From a virus, in the IMG/VR virus record IMGVR_UViG_3300007735_000802: a DNA stretch of 64,000 bases. One strand, given 5' to 3'. Both the position numbers and the translations under genes were made by a program. The notes under the pieces are model-generated. The model was given only the letters and a program-made list of their open reading frames with translations. It made no database searches and had not been told where the DNA came from. Of this stretch, positions 1-48,728 are shown piece by piece; position 1 is the first letter of the stretch, and each line of letters starts with the position of its first letter.

Positions 1-353
1 AAGTAAAAATTTTTCGAAGGTGAGGCCTCCTTTGGATCTAGATCTACCCCCAAAAATATTCCATTAGATGGAATATTTTTAACAATAGTTGTTGTTGAAG
101 AAGAATCACCGTTTCTACAAACACCTATTTCTAAAAAATATCTAGGACTAGGCACACAAGCATTAATTGCTTCTTGCAATGCACTATGGTTTGATAAACT
201 AAATTCATCATTTGCTACTGGTCTTCTAAGCATTTCTTCGAATGGAGAACCATATCCCAAAGGATCACATATATCATCCTTTTCAGAATTGGTTCTTATA
301 TCTTTAACTAAGTCTTGTTTCCACTTTGTTGGTAAGTCTTGCCTCTGTAACAT
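1..353 (-). CDS. Putative class I SAM-dependent methyltransferase, runs off the window edge (not in ORF track)
   Basis: Manual translation from ATG 353 (GAGGA SD upstream): MLQRQDLPTKWKQDLVKD...PRYFLEIGVCRNGDSS...GIFLGVDLDP. The FLEIG and GVDLD segments resemble SAM-binding motifs I and II. Open to position 1. Confidence 0.6.
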   Translation of the reverse strand, partial: MLQRQDLPTKWKQDLVKDIRTNSEKDDICDPLGYGSPFEEMLRRPVANDEFSLSNHSALQEAINACVPSPRYFLEIGVCRNGDSSSTTTIVKNIPSNGIFLGVDLDPKEASPSKNFY

Positions 354-993
354 TTCCATCTTCCTCATATGAAATATCATAACCTAGAGTTATCAATCTT
401 TTTGTAATTTCAACTACGGCATCATGATCGCTGTGAGCATTAGATTCAAAGGATATAAATTCTGGCAACATTTCTGGTGAATCTGAATAATATTTCAACA
501 CACTATCTAAAATTTTACAATCATATCCTTCAGTATCAATTTTTAATTGTTTTACTTTTCCTATGTTATAGGTATCAATCAAATTTTTATATGTATAGCA
601 TGGTATTGTTTTTTTTGTAACAAGACCCATAGAAAGCAAATCTACCGTTTTTAAAGATTTTCTGTCTGCATGATGATGCCATGTCCAAGGACATGGAAAA
701 TATCCTGTATGAAAATCGTGTGGTTTTCCGACAGAATTACAACCCTTCATCCAAATTCCAAGATTAAATTTGTCAATAATTTCTTCTGTTACATAATAAA
801 CATCAAGACCATTACTGTCTTCATCAGCAACAACTGCTCCATTTATTTTAGTGACATTTTTTTTATTTGGAAGTTTATTTAAATATTCTAATATTGGTTC
901 AACGGACAATCCGTATTCAGTATCATCTGCTTTTTCAATTAAAGTATCAAAAAAAGCAGTTCCAATTTCAATAAAATCATAATCTTGTTTCAT
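304..993 (-). CDS. FkbM-family methyltransferase-like protein
   Basis: FIEIG, SVEP and LKIDTEGYDCKIL motifs typical of FkbM/Methyltransf_21 proteins. Confidence 0.7.
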   Translation of the reverse strand: MKQDYDFIEIGTAFFDTLIEKADDTEYGLSVEPILEYLNKLPNKKNVTKINGAVVADEDSNGLDVYYVTEEIIDKFNLGIWMKGCNSVGKPHDFHTGYFPCPWTWHHHADRKSLKTVDLLSMGLVTKKTIPCYTYKNLIDTYNIGKVKQLKIDTEGYDCKILDSVLKYYSDSPEMLPEFISFESNAHSDHDAVVEITKRLITLGYDISYEEDGNVTEARLTNKVETRLS

Positions 994-2183
994 TCGACTT
1001 TACCCCATGTTTGAATTGCTTTGTGATATTCTTCACCATATGCTTTGTCAATTGCCTGTCTCATTGCCTTAGCACCAGACAATGTCCCATTTGGATGTCC
1101 ATGCACCGCACCACCAGCATTTCCAAGATAATCATTTCCCACTAAGTTAGTGATCTTGTCAACAAGACCAGGATGCAATCCGCAACTCAATGCTGGGACT
1201 GTGTTTCCCTCTCTGAGAATTCTAATGCATTCCAAAGTTTCTGCCTCGTCGTGATTGCTATAACCACCAACCATTCCTGTTTGGATTGTGTCAACGCCCA
1301 TAAGTGTTGCCAACTGGCACATCACAGTCCAACTGATGCTAAAACGATGCTGTGCGTCTGTGACTACCTTTGCTCCGCTGCTCTGGTAGTGAATGTAGAT
1401 GGGCAGATCCAACTGACGAATGCTGTTGTATGCACCGTAACCACTCCAGACATTGATATGCACACCATTTCCCCCTAATGAGTGAACCTTGGTAACGCGA
1501 TCAACTAGAATATGAGGATCACAGTTAATTGTGTGACAGAATACAACTTTTTTGGATTGAGTCGCCATGTAATTTGAAATTAGTTCTACTCGCTTTTCTA
1601 GTGGGCAGAAATTAGGATTAGACATGATTTCATCTTCCTTGATAAAATCAACACCACCATCAACTAACTCCTTTACCATATCAAGAAGAGTGTCCGGACT
1701 AATTCCAATTTTTGGTTTAATTATAGCACCAAATAATGGTTTATTATACTGCCCAGTAAACTCACGCATTCCAGATATACCAAACTTTGGACCTTTAAAT
1801 TGAGATGTTACGCTTTGTGGCAATTCTAACTTTATTAAACGACAACTTTTTATTAAATCAATATCTACATGACCACCCATAACTTGACAAAGAAGGTGAC
1901 TTATTCCGTCAGTGTTCCAGTCTGTGTTAATTATAGGAAAAGCAATTTTTACTTCTCCATTTTTCTTTTTAAGAAGTTGTTTTTCACTCCCTAAAATTAA
2001 ACAAGAATGATTTTTAAAAAGATCTTCAGTTTCCCATCGATTTCTTACATTTGGATTTCCCACACTTTGTCCGATTGCTATATTCCAAGCAGCATCTCTT
2101 AAACTTTTATTAGATTTAATTTGATATGTAGCAATGAAATAATTGTTAAGATTCACATCGTTTTCAGTTACAAATAAGTTCAT
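990..2183 (-). CDS. RuBisCO-like protein (RLP, form IV-type, predicted non-carboxylating)
   Basis: FKGPKFGISGMR, IIKPKIG, GGVDFIKEDE (RuBisCO motif), NAGGAVHGHPNG...GAKAMRQA; several carboxylase residues are substituted. Confidence 0.9.
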   Translation of the reverse strand: MNLFVTENDVNLNNYFIATYQIKSNKSLRDAAWNIAIGQSVGNPNVRNRWETEDLFKNHSCLILGSEKQLLKKKNGEVKIAFPIINTDWNTDGISHLLCQVMGGHVDIDLIKSCRLIKLELPQSVTSQFKGPKFGISGMREFTGQYNKPLFGAIIKPKIGISPDTLLDMVKELVDGGVDFIKEDEIMSNPNFCPLEKRVELISNYMATQSKKVVFCHTINCDPHILVDRVTKVHSLGGNGVHINVWSGYGAYNSIRQLDLPIYIHYQSSGAKVVTDAQHRFSISWTVMCQLATLMGVDTIQTGMVGGYSNHDEAETLECIRILREGNTVPALSCGLHPGLVDKITNLVGNDYLGNAGGAVHGHPNGTLSGAKAMRQAIDKAYGEEYHKAIQTWGKVE

Positions 2184-2184
2184 A

Positions 2185-2514
2185 TTATTTCTCCAAAATT
2201 TCTATCTTATCTCCAGGAACAGAAGGAGTCTTTACTACAAGAACTCTACAATCTTCTAAAAAAATAGGATCTGATATTTCCATTTTGTTAAGAACAAAAA
2301 TATCTCCAGGATTAATCTCTGTGTTATGTATAGTCATTTTACCATCTAGAAGAACATTATATTCGTCCGTCTTAGCATGATAATGTTTTGGCCAGTATTC
2401 TCCTTTTTTGTGTGTCATTACTGCTACTTCAAAATTTTTTGTCTTTAAGACAGATGGTTCAAAGTCTCCAATAAACCATCCACCTTTCATCGTATTTAAT
2501 TTTATAATTTTCAT
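2185..2514 (-). CDS. Cupin-fold protein
   Basis: GWFIGDFEP, HYH...EYNVLLDGKM and PGDIF segments match the cupin metal-binding pattern. Confidence 0.75.
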   Translation of the reverse strand: MKIIKLNTMKGGWFIGDFEPSVLKTKNFEVAVMTHKKGEYWPKHYHAKTDEYNVLLDGKMTIHNTEINPGDIFVLNKMEISDPIFLEDCRVLVVKTPSVPGDKIEILEK

Positions 2515-3224
2515 AATTTTCTCAAATATTCTCTTAGATCATCAGGTGTTCCAACTGAATTATGCATTATATCTGGAATATGGAAAATGCCAACTCTTTT
2601 GTTGTGTTTAATCATATAATTATATGTTGGTCCAATATAATATTCTCCATTAATAGATTTGTCTTTTTCTTTGATCATTTCTTCTGCACTGTTGACAAAA
2701 TCGTTTCCATGTTTCCAATAATGTATACCATTCAAAGAGATATTGCTAATGATTTCTTTTTCTTTTACCTCTACGACTCTTCCATATCTGTCTAATCGGG
2801 CATAACTATTTTTTGGTGTATTTGCATAATAAGTAACAATTATTCCATCATGCACATTATTCTGAATTGATTTTATAAAAAATTCACTATCCCACCACAT
2901 TATCTGATCACAATTTGCTATAATTAATGGATCATTATTATTGATATACTTTTTCATCAATAGTGCGGTAGATGCTGGACCTTCTGTTAAATAATCTATT
3001 TCTAGTATAACAGAATTATCATTATGTTTTGCAAGCAAACTTTTTAAGTCTTCACTAAAATTACTTTTGCGAATAACGAATAGATAACGACCTTTGATTC
3101 CTAAAGAATCAATAGCATGAAGAATCATTTCTTTGTTTTCTATTTTGATAAGAGGTTTTGGATCTACAAATCCTTCGTCACTAAATCGTTTACCAAGACC
3201 AGCAAGAGGTATTAATATATTCAT
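2511..3224 (-). CDS. Sugar nucleotidyltransferase-like protein (GT2_BcE/BcbE-like)
   Basis: ILIPLAGLGKRF...PKPLI nucleotide-binding loop, TEGPA, IANCDQ, VKEK, NGEYYI, GTPDDL. Confidence 0.85.
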   Translation of the reverse strand: MNILIPLAGLGKRFSDEGFVDPKPLIKIENKEMILHAIDSLGIKGRYLFVIRKSNFSEDLKSLLAKHNDNSVILEIDYLTEGPASTALLMKKYINNNDPLIIANCDQIMWWDSEFFIKSIQNNVHDGIIVTYYANTPKNSYARLDRYGRVVEVKEKEIISNISLNGIHYWKHGNDFVNSAEEMIKEKDKSINGEYYIGPTYNYMIKHNKRVGIFHIPDIMHNSVGTPDDLREYLRKL

Positions 3225-4141
3225 AATATAACCTTATTGATTATCTGCTGAATTAAGTTATTTTCATACTCAAATTCAGGACTCCAATTGTACATAGTAT
3301 GTATAATTGGCAATCCAGTATCAAAAACAAAATTCATGTTGTGTCTTTCACGGTATTTGTTTATTGCAACTTCATCAAAATTATCAACAAATAATGAACG
3401 ATCTGTTATGATATTTTTCCAATTTGTTGTTTTTATTCCAAAAATATTATTACAAAAATAAGGATATTTACTATTATCTTTTATAATAGTTCTTTCTTTT
3501 GGAGACATTACTTCTTTAAAATTTTGAATTATATAATCATTGATTCTTTTTTGACAATCAAATCTAACTCTAACTGGATGAATACCTTTATAATAATGAT
3601 TAAAATTTTTTACTTTAGAATAAAATCTATCTGAATCCCACTCTGGCAAATCTTCGTTTAGAGATCTGTAATCAGCACCATGATCTGCTAGTTTGGTTTC
3701 ATTAAACATCAAATAAAGTTCTTTTTTTATTGAAATAGCGTGATTTTGCAAAAATAATTCAACTGTGGGAATTCCAGAGGAAATAGCACCAGTTGTAAGT
3801 AAATCATTTTCTTCTAACGATTCGATGTTGTGAAAAAACTTATCCCAAGAATCGGTAGTCATAAAACAATCTTCATCGTGTTTTACTGAATATTCGTGGT
3901 TTTGATTTAAAGCAAATACTACTTTCATTAAGTAGTTTAGCATATGACTGCGATCAAAATAATAAAATGATACTCTATCACCCAGATAAGATTCTATGGT
4001 ATTTTTACTAGAAGTATCGATACCATTAGATAAAACATAAAAATGAAAATTTTTATATCTACATTTAGATAATTCATGGGCATGTGCTAATATAAAATTT
4101 TCTCTGCGAGCACCAAGACAAAATATACCAATTTTTTTCAT
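3221..4141 (-). CDS. Putative GT-A fold glycosyltransferase
   Basis: VKHDEDCF DxD-like motif after a Rossmann-like N-terminus; lies in the glycan island; start moved to ATG 4141, after the upstream stop. Confidence 0.55.
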   Translation of the reverse strand: MKKIGIFCLGARRENFILAHAHELSKCRYKNFHFYVLSNGIDTSSKNTIESYLGDRVSFYYFDRSHMLNYLMKVVFALNQNHEYSVKHDEDCFMTTDSWDKFFHNIESLEENDLLTTGAISSGIPTVELFLQNHAISIKKELYLMFNETKLADHGADYRSLNEDLPEWDSDRFYSKVKNFNHYYKGIHPVRVRFDCQKRINDYIIQNFKEVMSPKERTIIKDNSKYPYFCNNIFGIKTTNWKNIITDRSLFVDNFDEVAINKYRERHNMNFVFDTGLPIIHTMYNWSPEFEYENNLIQQIINKVIL

Positions 4142-4146
4142 AATAA

Positions 4147-4827
4147 TTATTCCTGTATTTTCCAATTTTCGTATCCACTATCTTTGTCTGGATCAATGTC
4201 TGGGTGTGGATTCCAATCATAAACATCTTTGTCTTTTAAATATCTCACAACTGAATATGGATTAAGTTTATAATTCCATTTACCCTGACATCTAAGTCCC
4301 CATTCAACATCTTCTCCCTGACCCCAACACAAATTATTGTTCTGTGGATTTTCCAACATAAATTTTTTACTGCCACACCAATATGTGCCGTTGATATACA
4401 TTTCTCTTATTTTTGTTGGATCATTATACTTAACAAAGTGTAAAGGTCTGTGTTGTGTAAACCAATCCCTATGTCTTAATCCATTTTTCATTCTAACTGG
4501 ATTCATACAAACATCCCAATCGTATCCAAACTTGTCATATCCTATAACCCAGTTTTCGCAAAAAGCAACATAGTCATGACTCAAGCAAATATGTTCGTAT
4601 TTTGCATTTTGAACTATAAGATTTTTCTTAACGGTTACCCAACCAGGTCTTATGGTTTCTTCAAAAACTATATTTTTAATATTTTTATTTTCTAATTTCT
4701 TTATTGTTTTGATATATGGACCAATCAATATAATTTCAAATTTTTTAATATTTTTTTGATTTACTATTGATTTAATAATTTTTTCAATATAAAGATCATT
4801 AGAATAACATATTCCAAATGTCCACAT
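4147..4827 (-). CDS. Putative GT2-like glycosyltransferase
   Basis: TFGI, FEIILIG, KKNLIVQNAKYEHICLSHDY and WGQGEDVEW (GT2 ED motif). Confidence 0.7.
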   Translation of the reverse strand: MWTFGICYSNDLYIEKIIKSIVNQKNIKKFEIILIGPYIKTIKKLENKNIKNIVFEETIRPGWVTVKKNLIVQNAKYEHICLSHDYVAFCENWVIGYDKFGYDWDVCMNPVRMKNGLRHRDWFTQHRPLHFVKYNDPTKIREMYINGTYWCGSKKFMLENPQNNNLCWGQGEDVEWGLRCQGKWNYKLNPYSVVRYLKDKDVYDWNPHPDIDPDKDSGYENWKIQE

Positions 4828-4829
4828 AG

Positions 4830-5459
4830 TTAACCTTTATTTTCCCATCCACACATACCATTTTCATAATTAATTCCTGCTTTACTAATACCAACATAAA
4901 TTTTATGATTTTCTATTTCGTGAATAGATGATGTGCAATAATTGTCTAATTTACAAAAATTGTAATCATTACTGTTATTTCTATAGTAATCTATTAAATA
5001 TGCATGTTCAGTTTCTCTAATTGATGGATCAAGTTTTGCCTTTTCACACAAATTTTTCCAAGGTTGAATAAACTCCAATGATTTTTTAGTATTATTGAAA
5101 AACATAAAACATGCATGAGGAGTGCCAATATCATAATACCATTTTCCAATATCGTATTCTTTATTCCTCATAAAGAATCCAATGTCACATGTTAATTCTT
5201 TCAATTCATCTACTGGTTTTATGAAAGAACAATCTATGTCTATCCATATAACGGCATCATTTAATTCTTTTATCTTTTGTTCAATAAAAGTTGGTTTATG
5301 AAAATTTAATGTTTTATAATTTGGATTATCAATTTGAACATTGTCAATACTATATTCGTATCCAAGAGAATCTAACTGTTTTTTTAAATTTAAATAACAA
5401 TTTTCATAATATTTTGATTTTTCTGGATTACAATCATACCAAAAAGAAATAAATTTCAT
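4830..5459 (-). CDS. Putative nucleotide-diphospho-sugar transferase (GT-A)
   Basis: KPTFI...VIWIDID DxD motif; paralogous to 5456..6118. Confidence 0.65.
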   Translation of the reverse strand: MKFISFWYDCNPEKSKYYENCYLNLKKQLDSLGYEYSIDNVQIDNPNYKTLNFHKPTFIEQKIKELNDAVIWIDIDCSFIKPVDELKELTCDIGFFMRNKEYDIGKWYYDIGTPHACFMFFNNTKKSLEFIQPWKNLCEKAKLDPSIRETEHAYLIDYYRNNSNDYNFCKLDNYCTSSIHEIENHKIYVGISKAGINYENGMCGWENKG

Positions 5460-6118
5460 AAATTCCCCACTAGGTTATATTTAACTGCTTCTTCATTCAT
5501 TCCCATTTCACGCAAAGATTTTTCTTTAGAAACTCCATCCGCAATACCCATTGTTATCATTGGTTGCATTGTGTTTGGTATTGAAGTACCAGGCCATATT
5601 GCATAGTTTATTGGCAACATTCCTATTTTTAGTTTATGTACATACTCTGGTAAAACTTGAAACATGAGTATTTCATGATCAAAGACTTTACTTGTATTTG
5701 ATCTTAAATTTTCTTCACACTTTAAAATCCAATAATTTAAAAATTCAATCACTATGTCTTTGTATGTAAAATAAATCGGAGATGCTTTTGGAAGTGTGAC
5801 ATTGACATTTGGTGGTAGGCCCTGATACGCAAAAGCAATATCACAATTATTTTCTATTTCATCAAACACTTTCAATTCAGCATGAATTAATGAATCTACA
5901 TCCAACCAAACAAATGGTTTTTTCTTTTCAAGCAAAACATCTAATATAAACTTTGGTTTTGCCAAACAATTTAATCTGTACTCTCCTCTAGATGGAAGTT
6001 CTCTCACATCATGTGGAATATTATTTTCGTTGCAGTTGATACGCAACCTACGCGAATGATCGCTGTAGTAGGTTCTTCCATCAATGTCTGCATAAAATGA
6101 TACAATCTCAGTTTTCAT
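5456..6118 (-). CDS. Putative nucleotide-diphospho-sugar transferase (GT-A)
   Basis: KPKFIL...FVWLDVDS DxD motif, DHE, LPINY. Confidence 0.65.
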   Translation of the reverse strand: MKTEIVSFYADIDGRTYYSDHSRRLRINCNENNIPHDVRELPSRGEYRLNCLAKPKFILDVLLEKKKPFVWLDVDSLIHAELKVFDEIENNCDIAFAYQGLPPNVNVTLPKASPIYFTYKDIVIEFLNYWILKCEENLRSNTSKVFDHEILMFQVLPEYVHKLKIGMLPINYAIWPGTSIPNTMQPMITMGIADGVSKEKSLREMGMNEEAVKYNLVGNL

Positions 6119-6950
6119 TGATTAACTCAAACAATATATCGTCAGCATTCTTGAGTTCTTTAACACGATTAAAGTTATCTCTTACTGCTTCTAGTTTACT
6201 TTCATATAACTCTTTTGTCAACATTTTTGGATCAAAATCTGGAGTCAATTCTATAATTCCATCTTTATTGAAGATATCTCCAATATCAGGAGTTCCCCAG
6301 TATATTGGAATAGTTCCAGTTGCGAAACAGTCTGTCAACTTTTCTGTATAATATGTTTCATACTTATCATTCTCTATTGTGATTGAAAACATGTACGGAT
6401 TTAAAAGTTCTTCTTTGTTTGGCCATGGATTTCCTTGATCACCAACTCTATTTGATCCTGCTGCTCCACCAAATAAATCAATTTGATTTTTAAATTTTTC
6501 TGCAACTTGATGTCTTATATGATGTCCAAATGTAACTTTTTTCCCAGAAGCAATCATTGAAACTATCTTGGTTTTATCAAAAATCTGATGATTTTTAACC
6601 CAAGGCAAATTACTGCCAGCTGGACAATATTTGATATTAGGATGCTTTCCAACCCACTGTTTATCAGAAACAAAAACAATATCATAAGAATCTGATATAT
6701 TTTTTAAATTATCTTCCCAAACATTTATTGGAACATACCATGAATGAAAAATAGCACGGGATTCACAGATCCATGCTATTTTTCTTTCCCCTAATTTTTT
6801 CTGATACATCATCCCAGGGATTATATGTGAATCAACAAATACCTTTACTGGATGATCTTTTAAGACCCAATTAAAATTTTTTGGTTTATAATCCGAGCAC
6901 GAAGAATATTGATATAAAAATCCACCACCTATTAACTGCATTTCCTTCAT
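6108..6950 (-). CDS. GT10-family (fucosyltransferase-like) glycosyltransferase
   Basis: YMFSITIEN...YYTEKLTDCFATGTIPIYWG is the GT10 signature. Confidence 0.85.
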   Translation of the reverse strand: MKEMQLIGGGFLYQYSSCSDYKPKNFNWVLKDHPVKVFVDSHIIPGMMYQKKLGERKIAWICESRAIFHSWYVPINVWEDNLKNISDSYDIVFVSDKQWVGKHPNIKYCPAGSNLPWVKNHQIFDKTKIVSMIASGKKVTFGHHIRHQVAEKFKNQIDLFGGAAGSNRVGDQGNPWPNKEELLNPYMFSITIENDKYETYYTEKLTDCFATGTIPIYWGTPDIGDIFNKDGIIELTPDFDPKMLTKELYESKLEAVRDNFNRVKELKNADDILFELINEN

Positions 6951-6976: not shown

Positions 6977-7375
6977 TTACTTTCCTATGTGGTATTTAGG
7001 AACCAGAGTCCATTCTTGTTTGTCTTTGAATGGAATTATCTTCAATCTTGCAAGAGATAATTGTGGTTCTTTATACTTGTTTGGATCTAACGGAGTGATC
7101 AAACCCCATTCTGTCAAAAGTTTAACTATTGTATTTCTTCGTCCAAGATCATCAGTTGACATATCAGATTCTAAACCATCAAGTACAAACATTTCTTTAA
7201 AATGCATGATGGCATATCTACCTCTCTTGTGTAGTATGTGACAAGACTGATATAACTTTTTTTCTGTTTTTGAAGAAACTCCGATTCTAGTCAGGGTTTC
7301 TTTAACTTTAAGAAAGTCTTCTTCTGAATTTAATTTTACTTCTACACCCAATCCCTCAAAAATATCTTCTGTCAT
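6977..7375 (-). CDS. regA: Translational repressor RegA
   Basis: FLKVKETLTRIGV, LYQSCHILHKRGRYAIMHFKE, WTLVPKYHIG. Confidence 0.97.
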   Translation of the reverse strand: MTEDIFEGLGVEVKLNSEEDFLKVKETLTRIGVSSKTEKKLYQSCHILHKRGRYAIMHFKEMFVLDGLESDMSTDDLGRRNTIVKLLTEWGLITPLDPNKYKEPQLSLARLKIIPFKDKQEWTLVPKYHIGK

Positions 7376-7400: not shown

Positions 7401-7408
7401 TATTTATA
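7401..7408 (-). promoter_or_regulatory. T4-type late promoter TATAAATA upstream of regA
   Basis: Exact consensus in the intergenic gap. Confidence 0.65.
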
Positions 7409-16669: not shown

Positions 16670-16677
16670 TATTTATA
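16670..16677 (-). promoter_or_regulatory. Late promoter TATAAATA for gp3
   Basis: Exact consensus 5 nt before ATG 16664. Confidence 0.75.
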
Positions 16678-21262: not shown

Positions 21263-21270
21263 TATTTATA
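21263..21270 (-). promoter_or_regulatory. Late promoter TATAAATA
   Basis: Exact consensus upstream of the AGGAG SD of 21245. Confidence 0.75.
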
Positions 21271-24689: not shown

Positions 24690-24697
24690 TATTTATA
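24690..24697 (-). promoter_or_regulatory. Late promoter TATAAATA for gp18
   Basis: Exact consensus upstream of the AAGGAG SD. Confidence 0.7.
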
Positions 24698-29439: not shown

Positions 29440-29476
29440 AAAAATCTCCATCTTTATTTATAAGATGGAGATTTTT
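29440..29476. promoter_or_regulatory. Perfect 15-bp inverted repeat with a late promoter in its loop (terminator and/or SD-sequestering hairpin)
   Basis: AAAAATCTCCATCTT-TATTTAT-AAGATGGAGATTTTT; TATAAATA on the minus strand at 29455..29462. Confidence 0.8.
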
Positions 29477-31574: not shown

Positions 31575-34500
31575 TTAACACGCTTCATAATCAGAACAAT
31601 CGGAACCACATAAAATAGGAACACACAACTCTTCATTATTTATAGTTATTTTTACATTTTTAATTGTTGTGTTTGTTGAATATCTGAATGTTAACGATGG
31701 AATACATGAAACTGATTCGTTTATAATTAAATTATCACAATTCACAATTCTTTCAAGATCACATGGTGGACTAAATGTACCTGGAGGACCAACTTGACCA
31801 ATTTGAGGACCATTATTGCATTCTTCAACACATTGTTGTGGTTCACAAGTTCCTGTTGCACAACAATCACATCCACCAGGATAACATTCATCTGGAGATC
31901 TACAAGGACCAGCAGCACAATCACATATAGTTGATGGAGCTACTTTATATCCAAATAACAAATGTGCTCTGTGATCAACATACTGCAATACTGGACAAGA
32001 TAATGGACCACCACCACTACAGCACAAATCAGCCCAATGCCAACCATATTGCCATGGTCCACCAAGTAATTGATCCGAACTTCCATTAGGCCACATGTTT
32101 AAATAAGACCATTCATTATTTACTATTGCTTGTGTTTTTGGTAAAAATGTAGAATATGTTACTCTTACTTTTCCATCAAGCGATGGATCATAACATTCAA
32201 CACCAAGAAGTTCTTTGTCTGGTCCAAGACCACAATCTAAAAACTTCTCATAAAGAATTTCTCCGAGTGTACCTTTTAATTCTGTTGGAGTTATTAATCC
32301 ATTAGCTACTTTACTTCTCCAACCATTTTGAGTTCCAAAATAAATACTGTCTTGAGCTTCTGATACGCTTGCTCTGTTTTTGTCTGCGGTGTCAAATGAT
32401 TGATTTTCAGCAAATTTTATAAAACCGCCATAAACTATTCCACCATTCAAATATGTTAATCCCGCTTCATAATATAAAGGATCGTGAATAATTCTTGTTT
32501 GTGTAGTTCCTAAATTGCATGGTCTATTATCTGTTGGATATTGCGTATCTGAACTTTTCTTGAAAAACATTTGTCTTCCTGCTGGTTGATAATTTTGCAA
32601 GTAAACAATTGTCGAGTTGCTTTCTGGTATTGCAGCTCCTCCTTGATTTATTTTTCTAAGATTATGAAATCCTCGAAAATCAAATGTGTCAAAATATGTT
32701 TGTGGTTCAGTAGTTATTATCTGTACAGGTCTTGTTTTTGTACAAAAAAGACAATCTGTTGAATCAAATACATAATCTGCTGCAATAAAATTATCGCTGT
32801 CTACTGGATAGTTTGCAAAAAATCTTGCCTTATCCCACCATGCACCTCCAGATGCTTCACATTGTTCTCTATTTCTTGCTGCTGGATCGCAAATGCCATC
32901 AGTGCTATTTGGTGATTTTTTACAACAAATACCGGTATGATATTCTATAGTTCCGCATGGTTGCGCCGAACATGTTATATCTTTTCTAAATGTTTGATTT
33001 GTTCCAGAACAATTTTGTCTTGTTACATTATCAGCGCATGTGAAATTACCTGAAGTAGTTTCAGTACAACAAGATCCAGTTTCTACTTCAACAGTATCAC
33101 CACATGTACATGCACAACTTATTTCACCACATTGCTTATTTGGTCCCATAAAATATGTTTTGATTTGACCAGCAATTGTTCTATTCAAGCATCCAGTAAA
33201 AGTGTCAGAAACACATGTAGATGTTCCTGCTGCTATATCACATACACAACATGCACCAACGACATTTGTTTGATCGCAGCAGTTTACATCTGCACATGTT
33301 CCTCCAGTTACAGAAAGACCACCAAGAATTAATTCACATTGAACTCTGGTATATCTTCCTAAACAAACTCCATCTTTACAGCAAACTGTTTGTTGTGAAT
33401 CGCAAGGATCATAACAAAATCTTCCTTGTGCTTTTAATTCTTCTTCCGACAAATCTCCGGGTGGATTGTTTGTTCCTGTTGAATTATTATAATCCGAACA
33501 TGTAATTCCGGTCCAATATTGACCGCCGTATGCTTCACACAATGATATCGAAAGTCCCTCTACACATGCACCACCAACGCAGCAAACTCCTCCAAGACCA
33601 CATGTTTTGTCACATGCCAATCCTGGATTGAATGATCCAAATAATTTATCACACTCTGATTTTGTAGAATAATCTCTGCATTCTTTTGTTCCATCGGGAT
33701 TAGTAAAGCAGCAAGATCCATACAAATATCCAGGAATGCATTGTCTATAGACATTTGTAACATTATGACCACGATGAGCAACTGTTGCTAACCATGTTTG
33801 ACCAGCGTCATAACTCAATAATCCTATGATGTTTCTACCACACGATAGGTAGTTTTCACTTGGTTCAAAATAAACATTATCTGGAAATTTCCAAACATTA
33901 TCAGAATCAATAAAGAGAGTGACGGATGCAATTTCACCCTCAATAAATGTTCCTGTTAATCCTTGTATACCAATTGGTGTTTTGATATCAAAAGCACCAG
34001 CAACATCACAATCTAAAAATATACCAAGAGTAGTTCCAGTGGTAAAATTCGGTTCTCCATATAGCCCAGAATATTGATCTTGTTTTACAGGACCAACAGT
34101 TTTAATTCTTGCTGCTGAATTGAGATGAATGGAAGTGTCTGAACTTGCACCTGCATTTCCATCGGTAAACAAAAATTGAAATGCTCCAGAATATCCTGTT
34201 CCTTGTTGAATATTTAAATCGCCACCATATACAGTTGTTGTATTTCCAAGGTAAAGAATATTGCCATTTTGCATAGAAGCGGCATTATAATTTCCTGGAA
34301 CATCATTTCCCCAATATATGCTGTCTATTGAAATGTATTCATTGTTTGGTCCTGTATATGATGCTCTGAGAGAACCATATGCAGATATACCTCTAAAATT
34401 AAATGTACCACCAGAAACATTCTTGAATAATGTTCTACCTCTTGATGCATAAGTACCAAGACCAATGCTTTCTCCAAGAACAAGACCTACAGATTTATCA

Positions 34501-45800: not shown

Positions 45801-47552
45801 TTACATTCCTTTTACCATATTTATACGAATAATTACAGAATCTACATCAGAAATAGTAATCTCATCTGAGAGTTTTGTAGTTGATAAATTTTTACCAGAA
45901 TATTGTGTAAAACTTGGTTTAGATACGATGCTTTTTATTTGTGATGTTTTTACATTTCCAGTTAAACTCTTATTTAATAAATAATCTGTTTCATCATAAA
46001 TTACATTTTTTAGTTCTGTATTTTGTGTGGTGCTTGAAAGTGCAACAACACCACCTACCTTTATTTCTCTTGCAGTTTTGCTTGTTGTTGTATTTCCAAA
46101 AGGCACATCATAAGTTATGTTATAAAGTTCATCTGTTTCTGGTAATTGTGCTGAACTTCCCGCTGAAACTGCAACCTTTACCGTAGTTCTAAAAATATAG
46201 TCTAATTTTTTATTTAAATTTGATCCAGTTGTAATGTTTGGTGATCCACTAATTCCTGTTGGATTTTGAATTAAACCAAAGAAATTAATTGCATTTGGTA
46301 ATTGTATTCCAGCAGTAGTAAAAGAAGAAGTATCTACTTTAGTATCAATCATAACATGTTGAGCATCCAATACCGTGACTGGATCAAATGCCAATCCATC
46401 GATGGTATCTAGATTTACTTCAATCTTTGATGCAAATAGATCAGTATCTAAATTGCCCGTAACATATCCAGAATTAATGGAAACTGAAATATCTTTGTAT
46501 CCAGATCCACTAGACAGTAATTCAATTCCATTAATGATGTATTGGTCATCCTGTAATATTGTCTTGAGACGAATACTTGCACCTGATCCAGAATTGCTTG
46601 TTATTGTAAGTTCTGGATTTTCTACCAATGCCACTAATTGTTTTCTGCTAAAAGAACTCAAGTCTATGAAAACACTGACAACTGATCCCTCTTCTAAATT
46701 ATCATTTGTGTTTACATCATAAAGGTAATAATATGGTGAGGCACTTGATAATTTATTTTGAGAAATCAAAGAACCAATTTCATCATACTTGTCAACTATA
46801 TCGATATTTGATTCTACTGTTTCATTGTCTGAATAAAATACACCAACAAAAGAGTCATTATTTTTTGACAGATAAAAACAATCGCTACATTTTATGTCAT
46901 ATGCTACTGTGAAAAGTTCTCCTTTTTCAAATTCTATTGTTCCATCATCACCGTCTGTGCTGATGGCATTTTTTGAATAAAGAGCACACTTTCCTACTTC
47001 TGTTGTTGCAGAATCATCACAAAATGTTCTTGTTTGTTGTAGTTGAACTTGCAAGTCATCGCTGTCAAATGTATCAAATGATACTACTGGAATCCATTTT
47101 GATGTTATAAATCTTTCAATTGTTGGAGTTATCTTATACAAAGGTTTCCAGGAATAACCGTCAGAGTATCGAACAATTCCAGTAGTATGAGTTGGTCTTA
47201 CTCTAGAAACAAAACTTCCAAACAAATCAGATCTATTATCTGAGTTATCTGATATGCAAAGGTATACATATCCATTTTGATTATTGTATGCATAAAAATT
47301 TTCAGTATTTTGTCTTATTGCGGACCATGGTTTGTATGGAATCATCGGTGTCCATTTTATGTTTGGAACCACAGGACTTAAACTATTTTGACCAACTCGA
47401 ACAGAAAAATCAGACTGTCTCCAAACATCTATGGTACTTTGATTTGAATTTGATGTTGTGTTGGCAGAGTCGGATCCAGCAAAAACAAATAACTGATTTT
47501 TTGTTCCAGCATCCTTTATGAATGTTTTGACATTGTTACTTTTTATACTCAT
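45801..47552 (-). CDS. gp8: Baseplate wedge subunit
   Basis: FYAYN...VYLCISDN...PTHT...DGYSWKPLYKI...WIPV; YSGK near the C-terminus. Confidence 0.8.
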   Translation of the reverse strand: MSIKSNNVKTFIKDAGTKNQLFVFAGSDSANTTSNSNQSTIDVWRQSDFSVRVGQNSLSPVVPNIKWTPMIPYKPWSAIRQNTENFYAYNNQNGYVYLCISDNSDNRSDLFGSFVSRVRPTHTTGIVRYSDGYSWKPLYKITPTIERFITSKWIPVVSFDTFDSDDLQVQLQQTRTFCDDSATTEVGKCALYSKNAISTDGDDGTIEFEKGELFTVAYDIKCSDCFYLSKNNDSFVGVFYSDNETVESNIDIVDKYDEIGSLISQNKLSSASPYYYLYDVNTNDNLEEGSVVSVFIDLSSFSRKQLVALVENPELTITSNSGSGASIRLKTILQDDQYIINGIELLSSGSGYKDISVSINSGYVTGNLDTDLFASKIEVNLDTIDGLAFDPVTVLDAQHVMIDTKVDTSSFTTAGIQLPNAINFFGLIQNPTGISGSPNITTGSNLNKKLDYIFRTTVKVAVSAGSSAQLPETDELYNITYDVPFGNTTTSKTAREIKVGGVVALSSTTQNTELKNVIYDETDYLLNKSLTGNVKTSQIKSIVSKPSFTQYSGKNLSTTKLSDEITISDVDSVIIRINMVKGM

Positions 47553-47564
47553 ATGATATCTCTA

Positions 47565-48728
47565 TTATGGACCAAGGGATGGGCATGAAGGAATTCCTGC
47601 ATTTGGAGAACCAAGACCCGGTGGATAACACAACTCTAGCATTGTTTCAATATTTATATTAAAAATATCAAAGGTATCATATTGAGAAGTCCAATTTGGA
47701 AATAGATGCGTTGGACCAGAGAATCCTGTATATCCATTGCAACTTGTTGTTTTTGGAAGGCCACACAATGTTATTCCTTCAGTTGCAGCATATGCAGTCC
47801 ATCCTGCTGCAATATGGATATTATTAGAATATGTTCTATAATCTGTAGATAATTTATATGGAGAATATTGGCGCAAAAGACCATATTCGCATATTACAGA
47901 TGTATTTTCATCATATGTTGGACCTTGATAATCACTAAGTCTTCTCTCAAACACTATTCGAAGTCCTGATGGATGAACCATATTCAGATATGCTTCTTTA
48001 TAGTCGTATGATGCTAGACCTACACTTAATAAATAAGACCAATCCTGAATCCAGTTTCCATCCTGCATTCTGGAACCATTGAGATAACTTCCACTCAGAG
48101 TTGCAAGATCATCATAAGTTCCTGTTGCTCCAGGAAATGTAAAATCAGCACTGTAAAATCTTCCACCGTTCAGTCTTAATATATTTTTCTTTGGAACATC
48201 AATATGAATATCATCTTCATCTACGCCATACAAAGTCTGGAAGAAGTATCGAATTCCTTCCTCTGTTGATTTTTTCTGATAAAATGTTCTTCTTACTTGA
48301 TTTAAGAATTTTCTAAGATTACTTTCCTTGACAATACCACCATAACGCTCTAGACTTTCTATAGGAAATCCAGAAGCATAAGATAGAGCAAGTTTTTCCA
48401 GAGAATCAGAATCACAATTATCAATATCAATGTTATCCGTAAATTTTTCACTTAATTTGTATTGTGCTCCAGATGTGCTGTCGCAGTATAACCAATCGTA
48501 GTATGCTTGAACCAAATCATAGATGGTTGTGCCATCTATATTACTTGATATCTTTTCTGCTTTCTCTTGTCTAATCCACAAAGGTATCTGACTTGTTATG
48601 TCATATATTCTGCCACACGAATCTTGAAATTCTACTTGCAATAGTTCAAATGTTATACCAGGAACTACGCTCGCTGCTATAGTTGCATTAATAGTTGCTG
48701 TTTGTGGATTGAGTGTAGTTGATAACAT
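47565..48728 (-). CDS. gp7: Baseplate wedge subunit (compact gp7-like)
   Basis: QIPLWI, AYYDWL, FYQKKSTEEGIRYFFQTLY, QDWSY, VHPSG; between gp6 and gp8. Confidence 0.7.
   Translation of the reverse strand: MLSTTLNPQTATINATIAASVVPGITFELLQVEFQDSCGRIYDITSQIPLWIRQEKAEKISSNIDGTTIYDLVQAYYDWLYCDSTSGAQYKLSEKFTDNIDIDNCDSDSLEKLALSYASGFPIESLERYGGIVKESNLRKFLNQVRRTFYQKKSTEEGIRYFFQTLYGVDEDDIHIDVPKKNILRLNGGRFYSADFTFPGATGTYDDLATLSGSYLNGSRMQDGNWIQDWSYLLSVGLASYDYKEAYLNMVHPSGLRIVFERRLSDYQGPTYDENTSVICEYGLLRQYSPYKLSTDYRTYSNNIHIAAGWTAYAATEGITLCGLPKTTSCNGYTGFSGPTHLFPNWTSQYDTFDIFNINIETMLELCYPPGLGSPNAGIPSCPSLGP

What the first reader, a model, noticed from the sequence alone, without database searches (positions are those of the whole stretch)
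990..2183. Phage RuBisCO-like protein with a rewired active site
Seen, aligned by eye to RuBisCO large-subunit numbering: K175/K177 (IKPK), the carbamylation/Mg motif K201-x-D203-E204 (FIKEDE), S379/G381 (LSCG) and G403/G404 are kept. E60 (AIGQS), H294/R295 (IHYQS), H327 (IQTG) and K334 (VGGY) appear to be replaced. Known: these losses are incompatible with RuBP carboxylation, and characterised RLPs are enolases, isomerases or (trans/de)carboxylases in methionine salvage and sugar-acid catabolism. Inference: no such pathway genes are nearby, so this could be an anabolic RLP acting on a ketose phosphate for glycan synthesis. It should not be called a carbon-fixation AMG. RLP-like genes on phage contigs may have been noted before, so novelty needs a search.
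Basis: partly seen in the sequence, partly recalled or inferred. Interest (0 to 1): 0.8.

Follow-up and report, generated by a model that had tools for sequence, protein, structure and literature searches.

The report
Phage RuBisCO-like enzyme in sugar-activation cassette
A T4-like phage carries a RuBisCO relative that cannot fix CO2 and that travels with, and elsewhere is fused to, a sugar-activating nucleotidyltransferase and a small cupin inside a glycan gene island, which points to an untested sugar-building job for the RuBisCO fold.

Summary
Window 990-2183 (minus strand) is an intact 397-aa RuBisCO large-subunit homologue (Pfam 9.7e-38; AF2 pLDDT 95; TM 0.90 to archaeal form III). A 133-sequence alignment anchored on a form I enzyme confirms every residue call. 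K175, K177, K201, D203, E204, S379, G381 and G403/404 are kept. E60, T65, W66, N123, H294 (Q), R295 (S), H327 (Q) and K334 (Y) are replaced. It is not a carboxylase and is not a member of the MtnW or OiaX families.

It belongs to a separate clade (SH-aLRT 99) whose Q294+Y334 signature is found nowhere else in my sample. This matches the phage/Beckwithbacteria 'form IV-like' group that Jaffe et al. (2019) reported without a function, so a phage RLP is not new in itself.

The context is what looks new. Across 81 loci the gene sits with a sugar-1-phosphate nucleotidyltransferase (77), a mini GDPD-like phosphodiesterase (68), a metal cupin (55) and methyltransferases. Single polypeptides RLP-NT and RLP-NT-cupin exist, the latter on a giant-virus-like contig.

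The most likely role is an enolising isomerase/epimerase that makes an unusual nucleotide-activated sugar for a glycan. The substrate is unknown. This scan has already found the same cassette on other DNA several times.

The parts
990..2183 (-). RuBisCO-like protein (397 aa, P0001). The Mg2+/carbamate enolisation set K156/K158/K182/D184/E185 is kept, with Q267 at H294 and Y308 at K334.
2185..2514 (-). Small single-domain cupin (109 aa) with cupin motif 1, G-x5-H-x-H-x4-E-x6-G, so probably metal-binding. One base separates its stop from the RLP start.
   Evidence: Weak Pfam Cupin_7/Cupin_2 hits. Family alignment A3 and the profile against PDB give only generic cupins: YxaG 2e-5, small 'M6P isomerase' 7zvm 8e-4, KdgF. 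Present in 55 of 81 loci. Fused to RLP-NT in P0279/P0280. Junction sequence.
2511..3224 (-). Sugar-1-phosphate nucleotidyltransferase (237 aa) with a GxGxR...PKP N-terminal motif. Its stop overlaps the cupin start (ATGA).
   Evidence: NCBIfam rmlA_long 4e-14. The family profile hits PDB 4evw 'NDP-sugar pyrophosphorylase' at 2e-33, then GDP-mannose, HddC, RmlA and GlmU enzymes. Present in 77 of 81 loci. Fused to the RLP in P0123, P0279 and P0280.
304..993 (-). FkbM-family SAM methyltransferase (229 aa), overlapping the RLP stop by 4 bases.
   Evidence: Pfam Methyltransf_21 3e-5 and NCBIfam fkbM_fam. A methyltransferase of some family follows the RLP in most loci.
3..380 (-). Second methyltransferase-like gene (cluster 'MT24', CmcI/Methyltransf_24-like), cut by the window start.
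   Evidence: Clusters with L040:11188-11826, which matches Methyltransf_24 and RMNT_CmcI. Found in 38 of 81 loci.
3221..6950 (-). Five abutting island genes upstream of the cassette: 6108-6950 (GT10 fucosyltransferase-like), 5456-6118 and 4830-5459 (paralogues), 4147-4827 and 3221-4165 (no family hit). They are presumed glycosyltransferase-type genes.
   Evidence: Pfam Glyco_transf_10 4.5e-9 for 6108-6950; the other four have no hit in Pfam, NCBIfam or PHROGs. Paralogy and sharing with close relatives such as L002.
6977..7375 (-). regA-like translational repressor. It marks the upstream edge of the island, after gp45-gp44-gp62.
   Evidence: PHROGs.
7401..7408 (-). TATAAATA, a T4-type late-promoter-like motif upstream of regA and the island.
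   Evidence: The count in the window is not above chance (9 against 8.96), but 8 of 9 matches are on the coding strand, so the site is only suggestive.

Best explanation
The gene encodes a catalytically competent RuBisCO-like protein. It keeps the superfamily's first half-reaction: a Mg2+ ion held by carbamylated K182 (K201), D184 and E185, with K156/K158 alongside, stabilises an enediolate made by abstracting a proton next to a carbonyl. It has lost everything needed to add CO2 or to hydrate and cleave the adduct (H294->Q, K334->Y, and the partner-subunit residues E60, T65, W66 and N123). It most likely acts as an isomerase or epimerase on a phosphorylated, or possibly nucleotide-linked, keto-sugar. 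It works in one pathway with the translationally coupled nucleotidyltransferase and cupin, and in relatives with a mini GDPD-like phosphodiesterase. The nucleotide-activated sugar product is then methylated and transferred by the island's methyltransferases and glycosyltransferases onto a glycan of unknown target (virion or host surface). Shown here: the fold, the residue pattern, the separate clade, the conserved synteny and the gene fusions. Inferred: catalytic activity, reaction type, substrate, order of steps and glycan target. One concrete version, which I put at about 0.15, runs as follows. The RLP and cupin convert a common ketose 1-phosphate into a rare aldose 1-phosphate, the reverse sense of the MtnA/R15P-isomerase reaction, and the RmlA-like transferase then activates it.
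For: Fold and catalytic set: Pfam 9.7e-38; AF2 pLDDT 95.3 and pTM 0.92; TM 0.90 to form III 2d69. K175, K177, K201, D203 and E204 are invariant in 37-38 of 38 clade members, as are Q294 and Y334, which argues for selection on an active site.
Not a known RLP type: every NCBIfam equivalog is far below its cut-off (type III 195/497, MtnW 172/409 and 139/514, OiaX 153/700). The IQ-TREE clade of 36 rows has SH-aLRT 99 and is separate from the MtnW-type, OiaX/acid-sugar and form I-type clades.
Pathway partners: in 81 loci the NT occurs in 77, the GDPD-like gene in 68, the cupin in 55, and methyltransferases in most. They lie on the same strand and usually abut or overlap. The same set sits inside GT2/methyltransferase clusters of Patescibacteria MAGs, and as an RLP-NT-cupin trio on a Verrucomicrobiae chromosome. 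More distant members (P0128, P0133, P0137) have the same neighbours.
Fusions: P0123 is RLP-NT (667 aa). P0279 and P0280 are RLP-NT-cupin (813 and 817 aa). All three are distinct clusters.
The NT profile matches only anomeric sugar-1-phosphate transferases.
The earliest-branching clade member, P0141, carries the same signature and lies in a sugar-phosphate operon with an FGGY kinase, a split transketolase and a cPGI-type cupin. This is consistent with a phosphosugar substrate.
Against: There is no biochemical data for any member of the clade. Synteny and fusion show a shared pathway but not the reaction. The RuBisCO-family P1 phosphate site (S379, G381, G403/404) is kept, but the distal phosphate site differs between subclades, so substrates may differ too. 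The cupin is missing from a third of the loci, where an unknown 242-aa protein 'c7' follows the RLP instead. The GDPD-like gene is not inside this window, and its role does not follow from ordinary NDP-sugar chemistry. An SDR dehydratase or epimerase is present in only 32 of 81 loci. P0141's context is catabolic, not anabolic. The glycan product and its target are unknown.
Confidence: 0.55

Rival explanations
1. The RLP and cupin form a SAM by-product salvage pair like the MTA-isoprenoid shunt. There, the RLP isomerises 5-methylthioribulose-1-P (or a 5-deoxy analogue) and the cupin removes the thiol or otherwise processes the product. In the phage this would detoxify by-products of the island's SAM and radical-SAM enzymes.
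For: An RLP beside a small cupin is the layout of the R. rubrum/R. palustris shunt (PMC5893883). The islands are rich in SAM methyltransferases, and some relatives carry radical-SAM genes.
Against: No MtnP, MtnK, MtnA or other salvage gene was found among the annotated neighbours. The clade is separated from the MtnW-containing clade by branches with SH-aLRT 99. The most constant partner, and the one fused to the RLP, is a sugar-1-P nucleotidyltransferase, which has no role in that shunt. The cupin matches only generic cupins. No R. rubrum-type reference sequence was available, so exclusion from the DeepYkrW group is indirect.
Confidence: 0.07
2. It is a decarboxylase or transcarboxylase/hydrolase on a phosphorylated keto-acid sugar, like the apiose-pathway RLPs, used here to build or trim a branched-chain sugar.
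For: OiaX is among the better NCBIfam matches (1.3e-44). P0141's operon contains a glycosidase with a faint match to aceric-acid hydrolase (7e-8, far below cut-off) and a split transketolase of the kind used in non-oxidative apiose catabolism (that link is from my own knowledge of Carter et al. 2018; the paper was not readable here).
Against: OiaX keeps H294, R295 and K334, which this clade has replaced. The score is 153 bits against a cut-off of 700. The OiaX/acid-sugar clade is separate. No four-carbon acid-sugar kinase gene is in the cassette.
Confidence: 0.1
3. The role is catabolic or central-metabolic. The phage uses the RLP to redirect a host sugar phosphate into the pentose-phosphate or transketolase network during infection, as in the P0141 operon, and the glycan neighbours are coincidental.
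For: The earliest-branching clade member lies in a kinase-transketolase-aldolase operon with a transporter and glycosidases. T4-like marine phages are known to carry carbon-metabolism AMGs (own knowledge; cited in PMC6389311).
Against: Apart from P0141, every member whose neighbourhood I read that has informative neighbours lies beside an NT and inside glycosyltransferase/methyltransferase islands, and fusions to the NT and cupin exist. No kinase, transketolase or aldolase was seen in the annotated part of the window's island, although four of its genes have no family hit.
Confidence: 0.1
4. It is a non-catalytic scaffold or ligand-binding protein, or an enzyme with chemistry unrelated to enolisation.
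For: The physiological reactions of some RLPs, such as the C. tepidum type, have never been defined (own knowledge). All partner-subunit active-site residues are replaced.
Against: The Lys-Asp-Glu metal/carbamate set, K175/K177 and the P1 phosphate loop are strictly conserved across sequences down to about 38% identity. That pattern is hard to explain without catalysis.
Confidence: 0.06
5. It is a bona fide CO2-fixing RuBisCO, that is, a carbon-fixation AMG.
For: Automatic annotations call close homologues 'ribulose-bisphosphate carboxylase large chain'. The best structural matches are form III enzymes.
Against: H294, K334, E60, N123, R295 and H327 are all replaced. The type III, form I and form II models score far below their cut-offs. 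No phosphoribulokinase, R15P isomerase or small subunit lies nearby.
Confidence: 0.01

Closest known systems
'Form IV-like' RuBisCO-related proteins of phages (Myoviridae) and Beckwithbacteria (Jaffe, Castelle, Dupont & Banfield 2019, Mol Biol Evol; PMC6389311)
   Same: They are phage-borne, on myovirus-type contigs from varied environments. They diverge strongly from other RLPs, lack several canonical residues and group with Beckwithbacteria sequences. In my tree the window's protein shares a 99-supported clade with a Beckwithbacteria MAG protein (L086) and with IMG/VR proteins.
   Different: That paper left the function open and discussed the proteins in terms of carbon metabolism and gene transfer. 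In the text I read it does not describe the nucleotidyltransferase/cupin/GDPD-like cassette, the fusions or the Q294/Y334 signature. I did not have their sequences, so identity of the two clades is inferred from their description.
MtnW/YkrW 2,3-diketo-5-methylthiopentyl-1-phosphate enolase (form IV-YkrW; PDB 2oej, 2zvi, 4nas)
   Same: Same fold. The K175, K201, D203, E204 and P1 phosphate-site residues are kept, the substrate is a monophosphate, and the chemistry is enolisation without carboxylation. About 28% identity.
   Different: MtnW-type enzymes have Lys at the N123 position and keep H294 (Bacillus reference), whereas this protein has G104 and Q267. The scores are below the equivalog cut-offs, the clade is separate, and no methionine-salvage genes are nearby.
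R. rubrum/R. palustris RLP1 5-methylthioribulose-1-P isomerase with its cupin methylsulfurylase (form IV-DeepYkrW; PMC5893883)
   Same: An RLP encoded next to a small cupin, with the RLP acting as an isomerase through an enediolate.
   Different: In the phage cassette the constant and fused partner is a sugar-1-P nucleotidyltransferase, and no MTA-salvage genes are present. No reference sequence could be fetched, so the phylogenetic distance was not measured directly.
OiaX 3-oxo-isoapionate-4-phosphate decarboxylase and related acid-sugar RLPs (Carter et al. 2018)
   Same: An RLP acting on a monophosphorylated unusual sugar derivative. The KxDE set is kept and N123 is Gly in both.
   Different: OiaX keeps H294, R295 and K334. 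It is catabolic and sits next to four-carbon acid-sugar kinases. The score is 153 against a cut-off of 700, and the clade is separate.
Archaeal form III RuBisCO (P. horikoshii 2cwx/2d69, T. kodakarensis 3a12)
   Same: It is the best sequence match (1e-39) and the best structural match (TM 0.90), and it is of similar compact length.
   Different: Form III enzymes are true carboxylases with the full catalytic set and work with AMP phosphorylase and R15P isomerase. This protein lacks H294, K334, E60, N123, R295 and H327.

Membership tests
RuBisCO large-subunit superfamily (PF00016/PF02788) | Significant match to the catalytic-domain model, and an N-terminal alpha/beta domain followed by a TIM-barrel fold | tested here: met
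   PF00016 at 130.5 bits against a cut-off of 30.1. The N-domain match is weak (17.5 against 20.7). The AF2 model has pLDDT 95.3, and Foldseek gives TM 0.90 to 2d69.
Bona fide RuBisCO (forms I-III) | Carbamylation/Mg set K201-D203-E204 plus K175 | tested here: met
   K182, D184, E185 and K156.
Bona fide RuBisCO (forms I-III) | Carboxylation, hydration and cleavage residues H294, K334, E60 and N123, and distal phosphate-site residues R295 and H327 | tested here: not met
   Q267, Y308, G38, G104, S268 and Q301.
Bona fide RuBisCO (forms I-III) | Score above the curated NCBIfam cut-offs for type III, form I and form II | tested here: not met
   195.3/497.45, 187.3/438 and 115.1/489.
MtnW DK-MTP-1-P enolase (IV-YkrW) | Score above the cut-offs of NF007095 and TIGR03332 | tested here: not met
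   172.1/409 and 139/513.6.
MtnW DK-MTP-1-P enolase (IV-YkrW) | Lys at the N123 position (the catalytic base in the G. kaustophilus enzyme; own knowledge of Imker et al. 2007), and placement in the MtnW clade | tested here: not met
   G104 here against K in the Bacillus reference. The two fall in different clades, each supported at 99.
MtnW DK-MTP-1-P enolase (IV-YkrW) | Methionine-salvage gene neighbourhood (mtnA/K/X/B/D) | tested here: not met
   The neighbours are an NT, a cupin, methyltransferases, GT-like genes and regA.
MTRu-1-P 1,3-isomerase RLP (IV-DeepYkrW) | Phylogenetic placement with the R. rubrum/R. palustris RLP1 sequences | not testable with these tools
   No reference sequence could be fetched. 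The clade holding the MtnW-type reference and its deeper branches is separate from the phage-type clade.
MTRu-1-P 1,3-isomerase RLP (IV-DeepYkrW) | Adjacent cupin together with MTA phosphorylase and MTR-1-P isomerase genes | tested here: inconclusive
   A cupin is adjacent, but no MTA-salvage genes are present, and the cupin matches only generic cupins.
OiaX / apiose-pathway RLPs | Score above the NF042437 cut-off, retention of H294/R295/K334, and an acid-sugar kinase neighbour | tested here: not met
   152.7/700. Q, S and Y stand at the three positions. The clade is separate and the island has no such kinase.
Phage/Beckwithbacteria 'form IV-like' clade (Jaffe et al. 2019) | Carried on myovirus-type phage DNA, highly divergent from other RLPs, and grouping with Beckwithbacteria proteins | tested here: met
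   The window has T4-like portal, sheath, terminase, gp23 and gp44-46 genes. A 36-row clade (SH-aLRT 99) includes the Beckwithbacteria MAG protein L086 and IMG/VR proteins. The paper's own sequences were not compared.

The most novel reading that the evidence does not exclude
This RuBisCO-superfamily clade (signature K175/K177/KxDE, Q294, Y334) is the committed enzyme of an undescribed, mobile nucleotide-sugar pathway. Together with a metal cupin and an RmlA-like transferase it is sometimes fused into one polypeptide. It would turn a common keto-sugar phosphate into a rare activated sugar that phages, giant viruses, CPR bacteria and other cells use to decorate surfaces. That would be the first anabolic, glycan-building role for the RuBisCO fold.
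Probability: 0.45. Interest if true: 0.8.

Novelty: new variant of a known kind. Interest (0 to 1): 0.6.

Why it matters
The RLP reactions I could trace are salvage or catabolic: enolase, isomerase, decarboxylase/transcarboxylase and oxygenase (list and references in PMC10176493). A clade that is locked to, and sometimes fused with, a sugar-activating enzyme inside glycan islands would give the RuBisCO fold a biosynthetic role. It would also point to an unknown activated sugar. The clade is large: more than 3,000 metagenomic homologues, 180 IMG/VR loci, several bacterial phyla and giant-virus-like contigs. It is routinely mis-annotated as 'ribulose-bisphosphate carboxylase large chain', which can inflate counts of viral carbon-fixation AMGs. 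The cassette is small (three or four genes), so the question can be tested directly by expressing the genes and screening substrates.

Tried and rejected
- Cultured-phage search: tblastn of the RLP against 50,697 GenBank phage records gave no match. Records near the window's own genome may be hidden.
- Whole genome: none is held. The nearest virus record, G001, is a 35-kb fragment without the gene. I therefore could not show that the GDPD-like gene lies just outside the window; I infer this only from the closest relative, L002.
- Complex prediction of RLP with NT: 'no answer' (score 0.00). This is not evidence either way.
- Structure of the GDPD-like protein: the job was interrupted twice and the machine then stopped answering. 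Its assignment rests on a profile hit to GDPD 7e0v (3e-4) over the HRG..EN..ExD..HD motifs and on one weak Pfam hit.
- Cupin against the cPGI-type cupin of the P0141 operon: hhalign was not significant (probability 0.5%). The two RLP-cupin pairings cannot be called homologous.
- The 242-aa 'c7' protein that follows the RLP where the cupin is missing: no PDB or Pfam match.
- Carter et al. 2018 could not be read.
- The apparent GDPD-RLP fusion P0153 lies on a contig where the RLP is split into two genes. I do not count it as a fusion.
- Reference sequences for R. rubrum RLP, C. tepidum RLP and form II could not be obtained. The tree is labelled only by form I (C. necator), OiaX (A. tumefaciens), a haloarchaeal acid-sugar-type RLP and a Bacillus MtnW-type protein. 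The last is identified only by its clustering and its Lys at N123, and its record carries no annotation.
Full report
**What is there.**
Window 990-2183 holds one intact ORF on the minus strand, 397 aa, kept as P0001. It matches the RuBisCO large-chain catalytic domain (PF00016) at E = 9.7e-38, 130.5 bits against a cut-off of 30.1. It matches the N-terminal domain weakly. Its best sequence matches among solved structures are P. horikoshii form III RuBisCO (2cwx, 1e-39) and MtnW-type enolases (4nas, 2oej, about 1e-36). An AlphaFold2 model built from a 52-sequence alignment is very confident (mean pLDDT 95.3, pTM 0.92). It superposes on form III RuBisCO with TM 0.90. The feature is real and far beyond chance.

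**The replicon.**
The window is a T4-like myovirus. It carries portal, tail sheath, large terminase, gp23-type major head protein, scaffold, UvsW-like helicase and gp46/gp47 genes, and also gp45, gp44, gp62 and regA. GC content is about 33%. gp23 is only about 55% identical to cyanomyoviruses, pelagimyophages and Methylophilales phages, so the host is unknown. Downstream of gp45-gp44-gp62-regA, a run of abutting minus-strand genes forms an island:
- a GT10-like gene;
- four genes with no family hit, two of them paralogues;
- a nucleotidyltransferase (2511-3224);
- a cupin (2185-2514);
- the RLP;
- an FkbM methyltransferase (304-993);
- a second methyltransferase-like gene, cut by the window edge.

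The NT stop overlaps the cupin start. One base separates the cupin stop from the RLP start. The RLP stop overlaps the methyltransferase start.

**Residue check.**
I aligned 133 sequences. These were the query, 20 close homologues, 108 full-length representatives of 50%-identity clusters, and four references: C. necator form I CbbL, A. tumefaciens OiaX, a haloarchaeal RLP beside an acid-sugar kinase, and a Bacillus MtnW-type protein. Spinach-numbered positions were located through the form I motifs.
- Kept: K175 (K156), K177 (K158), K201 (K182), D203 (D184), E204 (E185), S379 (S333), G381 (G335), G403/G404 (G357/G358).
- Replaced: E60->G38, T65->N43, W66->P44, N123->G104, H294->Q267, R295->S268, H298->A271, H327->Q301, K334->Y308.

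The HMMER alignment to 2cwx gives the same register.

Across the 38 sequences at 38% identity or more, G60, K175, K177, KxDE, Q294, Y334, S379 and C380 are essentially invariant. The Q294+Y334 pair is found only in this clade within the sample. Position 295 is K/R in 16 of 38 and H327 is kept in 15 of 38. Loss of the distal phosphate-site residues is thus a feature of the window's subclade, not of the whole clade.

**Classification.**
All curated NCBIfam models score far below their cut-offs: type III 195/497, form I 187/438, MtnW 172/409 and 139/514, OiaX 153/700, form II 115/489.

A FastTree of the 133 sequences and an IQ-TREE tree (LG+C20 PMSF, 77 rows) agree. The query lies in a well-supported clade (36 rows, SH-aLRT 99). 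That clade is separate from the clades holding the MtnW-type reference, the OiaX and haloarchaeal references, and the form I reference.

Inside the clade, IMG/VR phage proteins are interleaved with proteins from MAGs of several groups: Patescibacteria, Beckwithbacteria, Planctomycetales, Sphingobacteriales, Balneola and a Pelagibacteraceae single-cell assembly. A complete Verrucomicrobiae chromosome also carries one.

This matches the 'form IV-like' group of about 80 phage sequences plus Beckwithbacteria that Jaffe et al. reported, with the function left open (PMC6389311). GOS-only RuBisCO-like branches were noted as early as 2007 (PMC1821046). A phage RLP is therefore not a new observation.

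**How common it is.**
The word-indexed search returned 3,052 homologues, and its 120 best clusters are all at least 71% identical. 180 IMG/VR stretches encode a relative. Many are annotated by their sources as 'ribulose-bisphosphate carboxylase large chain'. No GenBank phage record matched.

**Neighbourhood.**
I called ORFs in 80 IMG/VR loci plus the window, clustered them, and rescanned with family HMMs. The counts out of 81 loci are:

| Gene family | Loci (of 81) |
|---|---|
| Nucleotidyltransferase | 77 |
| ~145-aa GDPD-like protein | 68 |
| Cupin | 55 |
| Methyltransf_24-like MT | 38 |
| FkbM MT | 38 |
| Unknown 242-aa protein 'c7' | 19 |
| SDR epimerase/dehydratase | 32 |

- The usual order is NT-cupin-RLP-methyltransferase on one strand. 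One subclade has GDPD-like-NT-RLP-c7 with no cupin.
- The ~145-aa protein carries the HRG..EN..ExD..GHD motifs of glycerophosphodiester phosphodiesterases. Its profile hits GDPD 7e0v at 3e-4.
- This GDPD-like gene is not inside the window. In the closest relative, L002, it lies three genes beyond the RLP, past where the window ends.
- The flanking glycosyltransferases differ from locus to locus.
- In two Patescibacteria MAGs the set GDPD-like, cupin, RLP, with a divergently transcribed NT, is embedded among GT2 and methyltransferase genes.
- On the Verrucomicrobiae chromosome the trio RLP-NT-cupin stands without obvious glycan genes.
- More distant members (P0128, P0133, P0137; 40-45% identity) again sit with NT genes. 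Small cupin-sized and GDPD-sized genes, glycosyltransferases and radical-SAM genes are also present.

**Fusions.**
P0123 (667 aa) is RLP-NT. P0279 (813 aa) and P0280 (817 aa) are RLP-NT-cupin in one polypeptide. P0279 occurs on two contigs. One of them carries a poxvirus-type VLTF3 gene and a P9_TM gene, so it looks like a giant virus. P0281 fuses the RLP to a protein family that follows the RLP in some phage loci, on a contig with ankyrin and AAA genes. An apparent GDPD-RLP fusion (P0153) lies on a contig where the RLP is split, so I discount it. These fusions are the strongest evidence that the RLP, the NT and the cupin act in one pathway.

**The partners.**
The NT family profile matches an uncharacterised 'NDP-sugar pyrophosphorylase' structure (4evw, 2e-33). 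After that it matches only anomeric sugar-1-phosphate transferases: GDP-mannose pyrophosphorylases, HddC, RmlA and GlmU. The cupin has the canonical metal-binding motif 1. It matches only generic cupins: quercetinase YxaG, small Cupin_2 proteins, one annotated as mannose-6-phosphate isomerase, and KdgF. Both the cupin and the GDPD-like protein belong to mostly viral, unnamed clusters in the ESM Atlas.

**A lead on substrate class.**
The earliest-branching clade member is P0141, from an Actinomycetota MAG. It has the same K177/Q294/Y334 signature. It sits in a sugar-utilisation operon with these genes:
- a GntR regulator;
- an FGGY kinase (xylulokinase/gluconokinase-like);
- a split transketolase;
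- a cPGI-type cupin;
- a class II ketose-bisphosphate aldolase;
- an aldo-keto reductase;
- glycosidases and an ABC sugar transporter.

This context suggests that the ancestral substrate is a keto-sugar phosphate. Its cupin is not detectably homologous to the phage cupin.

**Mechanism.**
- Shown: the enolisation apparatus of the superfamily and the proximal phosphate loop are strictly conserved. This apparatus is the carbamylatable Lys, the two acidic Mg ligands, and K175/K177. The residues that polarise CO2, hydrate the ketone and bind the distal phosphate are replaced.
- Established for the superfamily (PMC10176493, and the papers it cites): RLPs share the proton-abstraction/enediolate step and then diverge into enolase, isomerase, decarboxylase and oxygenase reactions.
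- Inferred: this protein forms a Mg-stabilised enediolate on a phosphorylated keto-sugar and reprotonates it to give an isomer or epimer. The invariant loop-6 Tyr is a candidate acid/base. The cupin performs a further metal-dependent isomerisation. The NT activates the resulting sugar 1-phosphate. Methyltransferases and glycosyltransferases finish and transfer it.
- Because the NT looks like an anomeric sugar-1-P enzyme and no mutase or anomeric kinase belongs to the cassette, one attractive version is ketose 1-phosphate to rare aldose 1-phosphate to NDP-sugar. The role of the GDPD-like protein is unexplained.

I put the general model at about 0.55 and that specific version at about 0.15.

**Rivals.**
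- An MTA-isoprenoid-shunt-like RLP-cupin pair (PMC5893883) is the most serious named alternative, because of the shared RLP-cupin layout. However, no salvage genes are present, the clade is separate from the MtnW-containing clade, and the fused partner is an NT (about 0.07).
- An OiaX-like decarboxylase is disfavoured by the loss of H294, R295 and K334 (about 0.10).
- A purely catabolic role, as in the P0141 operon, does not fit the island or the fusions (about 0.10).
- A non-catalytic role is disfavoured by active-site conservation (about 0.06).
- True carboxylation is excluded for practical purposes (about 0.01).

**Novelty and score.**
The gene itself is a new member of a published but uncharacterised phage RLP clade. 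The cassette, the fusions and the residue signature appear to be undescribed: a full-text search for RuBisCO-like protein together with nucleotidyltransferase found nothing relevant. I class it as a new variant of a known kind.

This scan has already reported the same cassette on other DNA several times. My results agree with those notes. They add the catabolic early-branching relative and the clade-wide residue table.

Interest is 0.6. A biosynthetic role for the RuBisCO fold would surprise specialists and is directly testable. Against that, the function is still inferred and the existence of the clade is already in the literature.

Noticed in passing
L104:6001-8442 (P0279), L105, and P0280: Single polypeptides that join RLP, nucleotidyltransferase and cupin (813 and 817 aa). 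The L104 contig also carries a poxvirus-type VLTF3 late transcription factor gene and a P9_TM gene, so the cassette seems to have reached giant viruses (Nucleocytoviricota).
   Followed up: partly
L098:1046-9287 (P0141, Actinomycetota MAG): The earliest-branching member of the clade lies in a sugar-catabolic operon with a GntR regulator, an FGGY kinase, a split transketolase, a cPGI-type cupin, a class II ketose-bisphosphate aldolase, an aldo-keto reductase, glycosidases and an ABC transporter. This may be an uncharacterised RLP-dependent sugar pathway in its own right.
   Followed up: partly
P0180 (583 aa): A TIR domain (PF13676, 3e-13) is fused to the N-terminus of a full RuBisCO-like protein that is about 30% identical to the query. 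The architecture looks defence-like and odd.
   Followed up: no
P0159, P0165, P0282: An IF-2B/ribose-1,5-bisphosphate-isomerase-type domain is fused to a full RuBisCO large subunit (700-740 aa). These look like single-chain versions of two steps of the archaeal AMP pathway and are unrelated to the phage clade.
   Followed up: no
L056:8285-9013 and relatives (cluster 'c7'); also L088:9983-10825 and L089:7116-7874: A conserved 242-aa protein with no Pfam or PDB match directly follows the RLP in the 19 loci that lack the cupin. It also follows the cassette in Sphingobacteriales and Balneola MAGs.
   Followed up: partly
window 7401-7408, 16670-16677, 21263-21270, 24690-24697, 29455-29462, 31637-31644, 45818-45825, 47651-47658 (all minus strand): Eight of the nine TATAAATA matches are on the coding strand, and several lie just upstream of structural genes, as T4 late promoters do. 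The total count is no higher than chance (9 against 8.96).
   Followed up: partly
window 4830-5459 and 5456-6118: Two adjacent paralogous genes (209 and 220 aa) with no hit in Pfam, NCBIfam or PHROGs. The close relative L002 has them in the same island.
   Followed up: no
L087 (Verrucomicrobiae chromosome OY970364.1, about 967.6-984.8 kb): An RLP-NT-cupin trio stands without glycosyltransferases. It is followed by a fatty-acid-desaturase-family gene and lies about 7 kb from a DDE transposase gene.
   Followed up: partly
window 31575-56505: A run of very large minus-strand ORFs (1055, 1046, 1214, 775, 583, 574 and 1882 aa), presumably baseplate, tail-fibre and other structural genes. Most were not examined; two smaller ORFs inside the run, which I tested, gave no hit or only a weak PHROG hit.
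   Followed up: no
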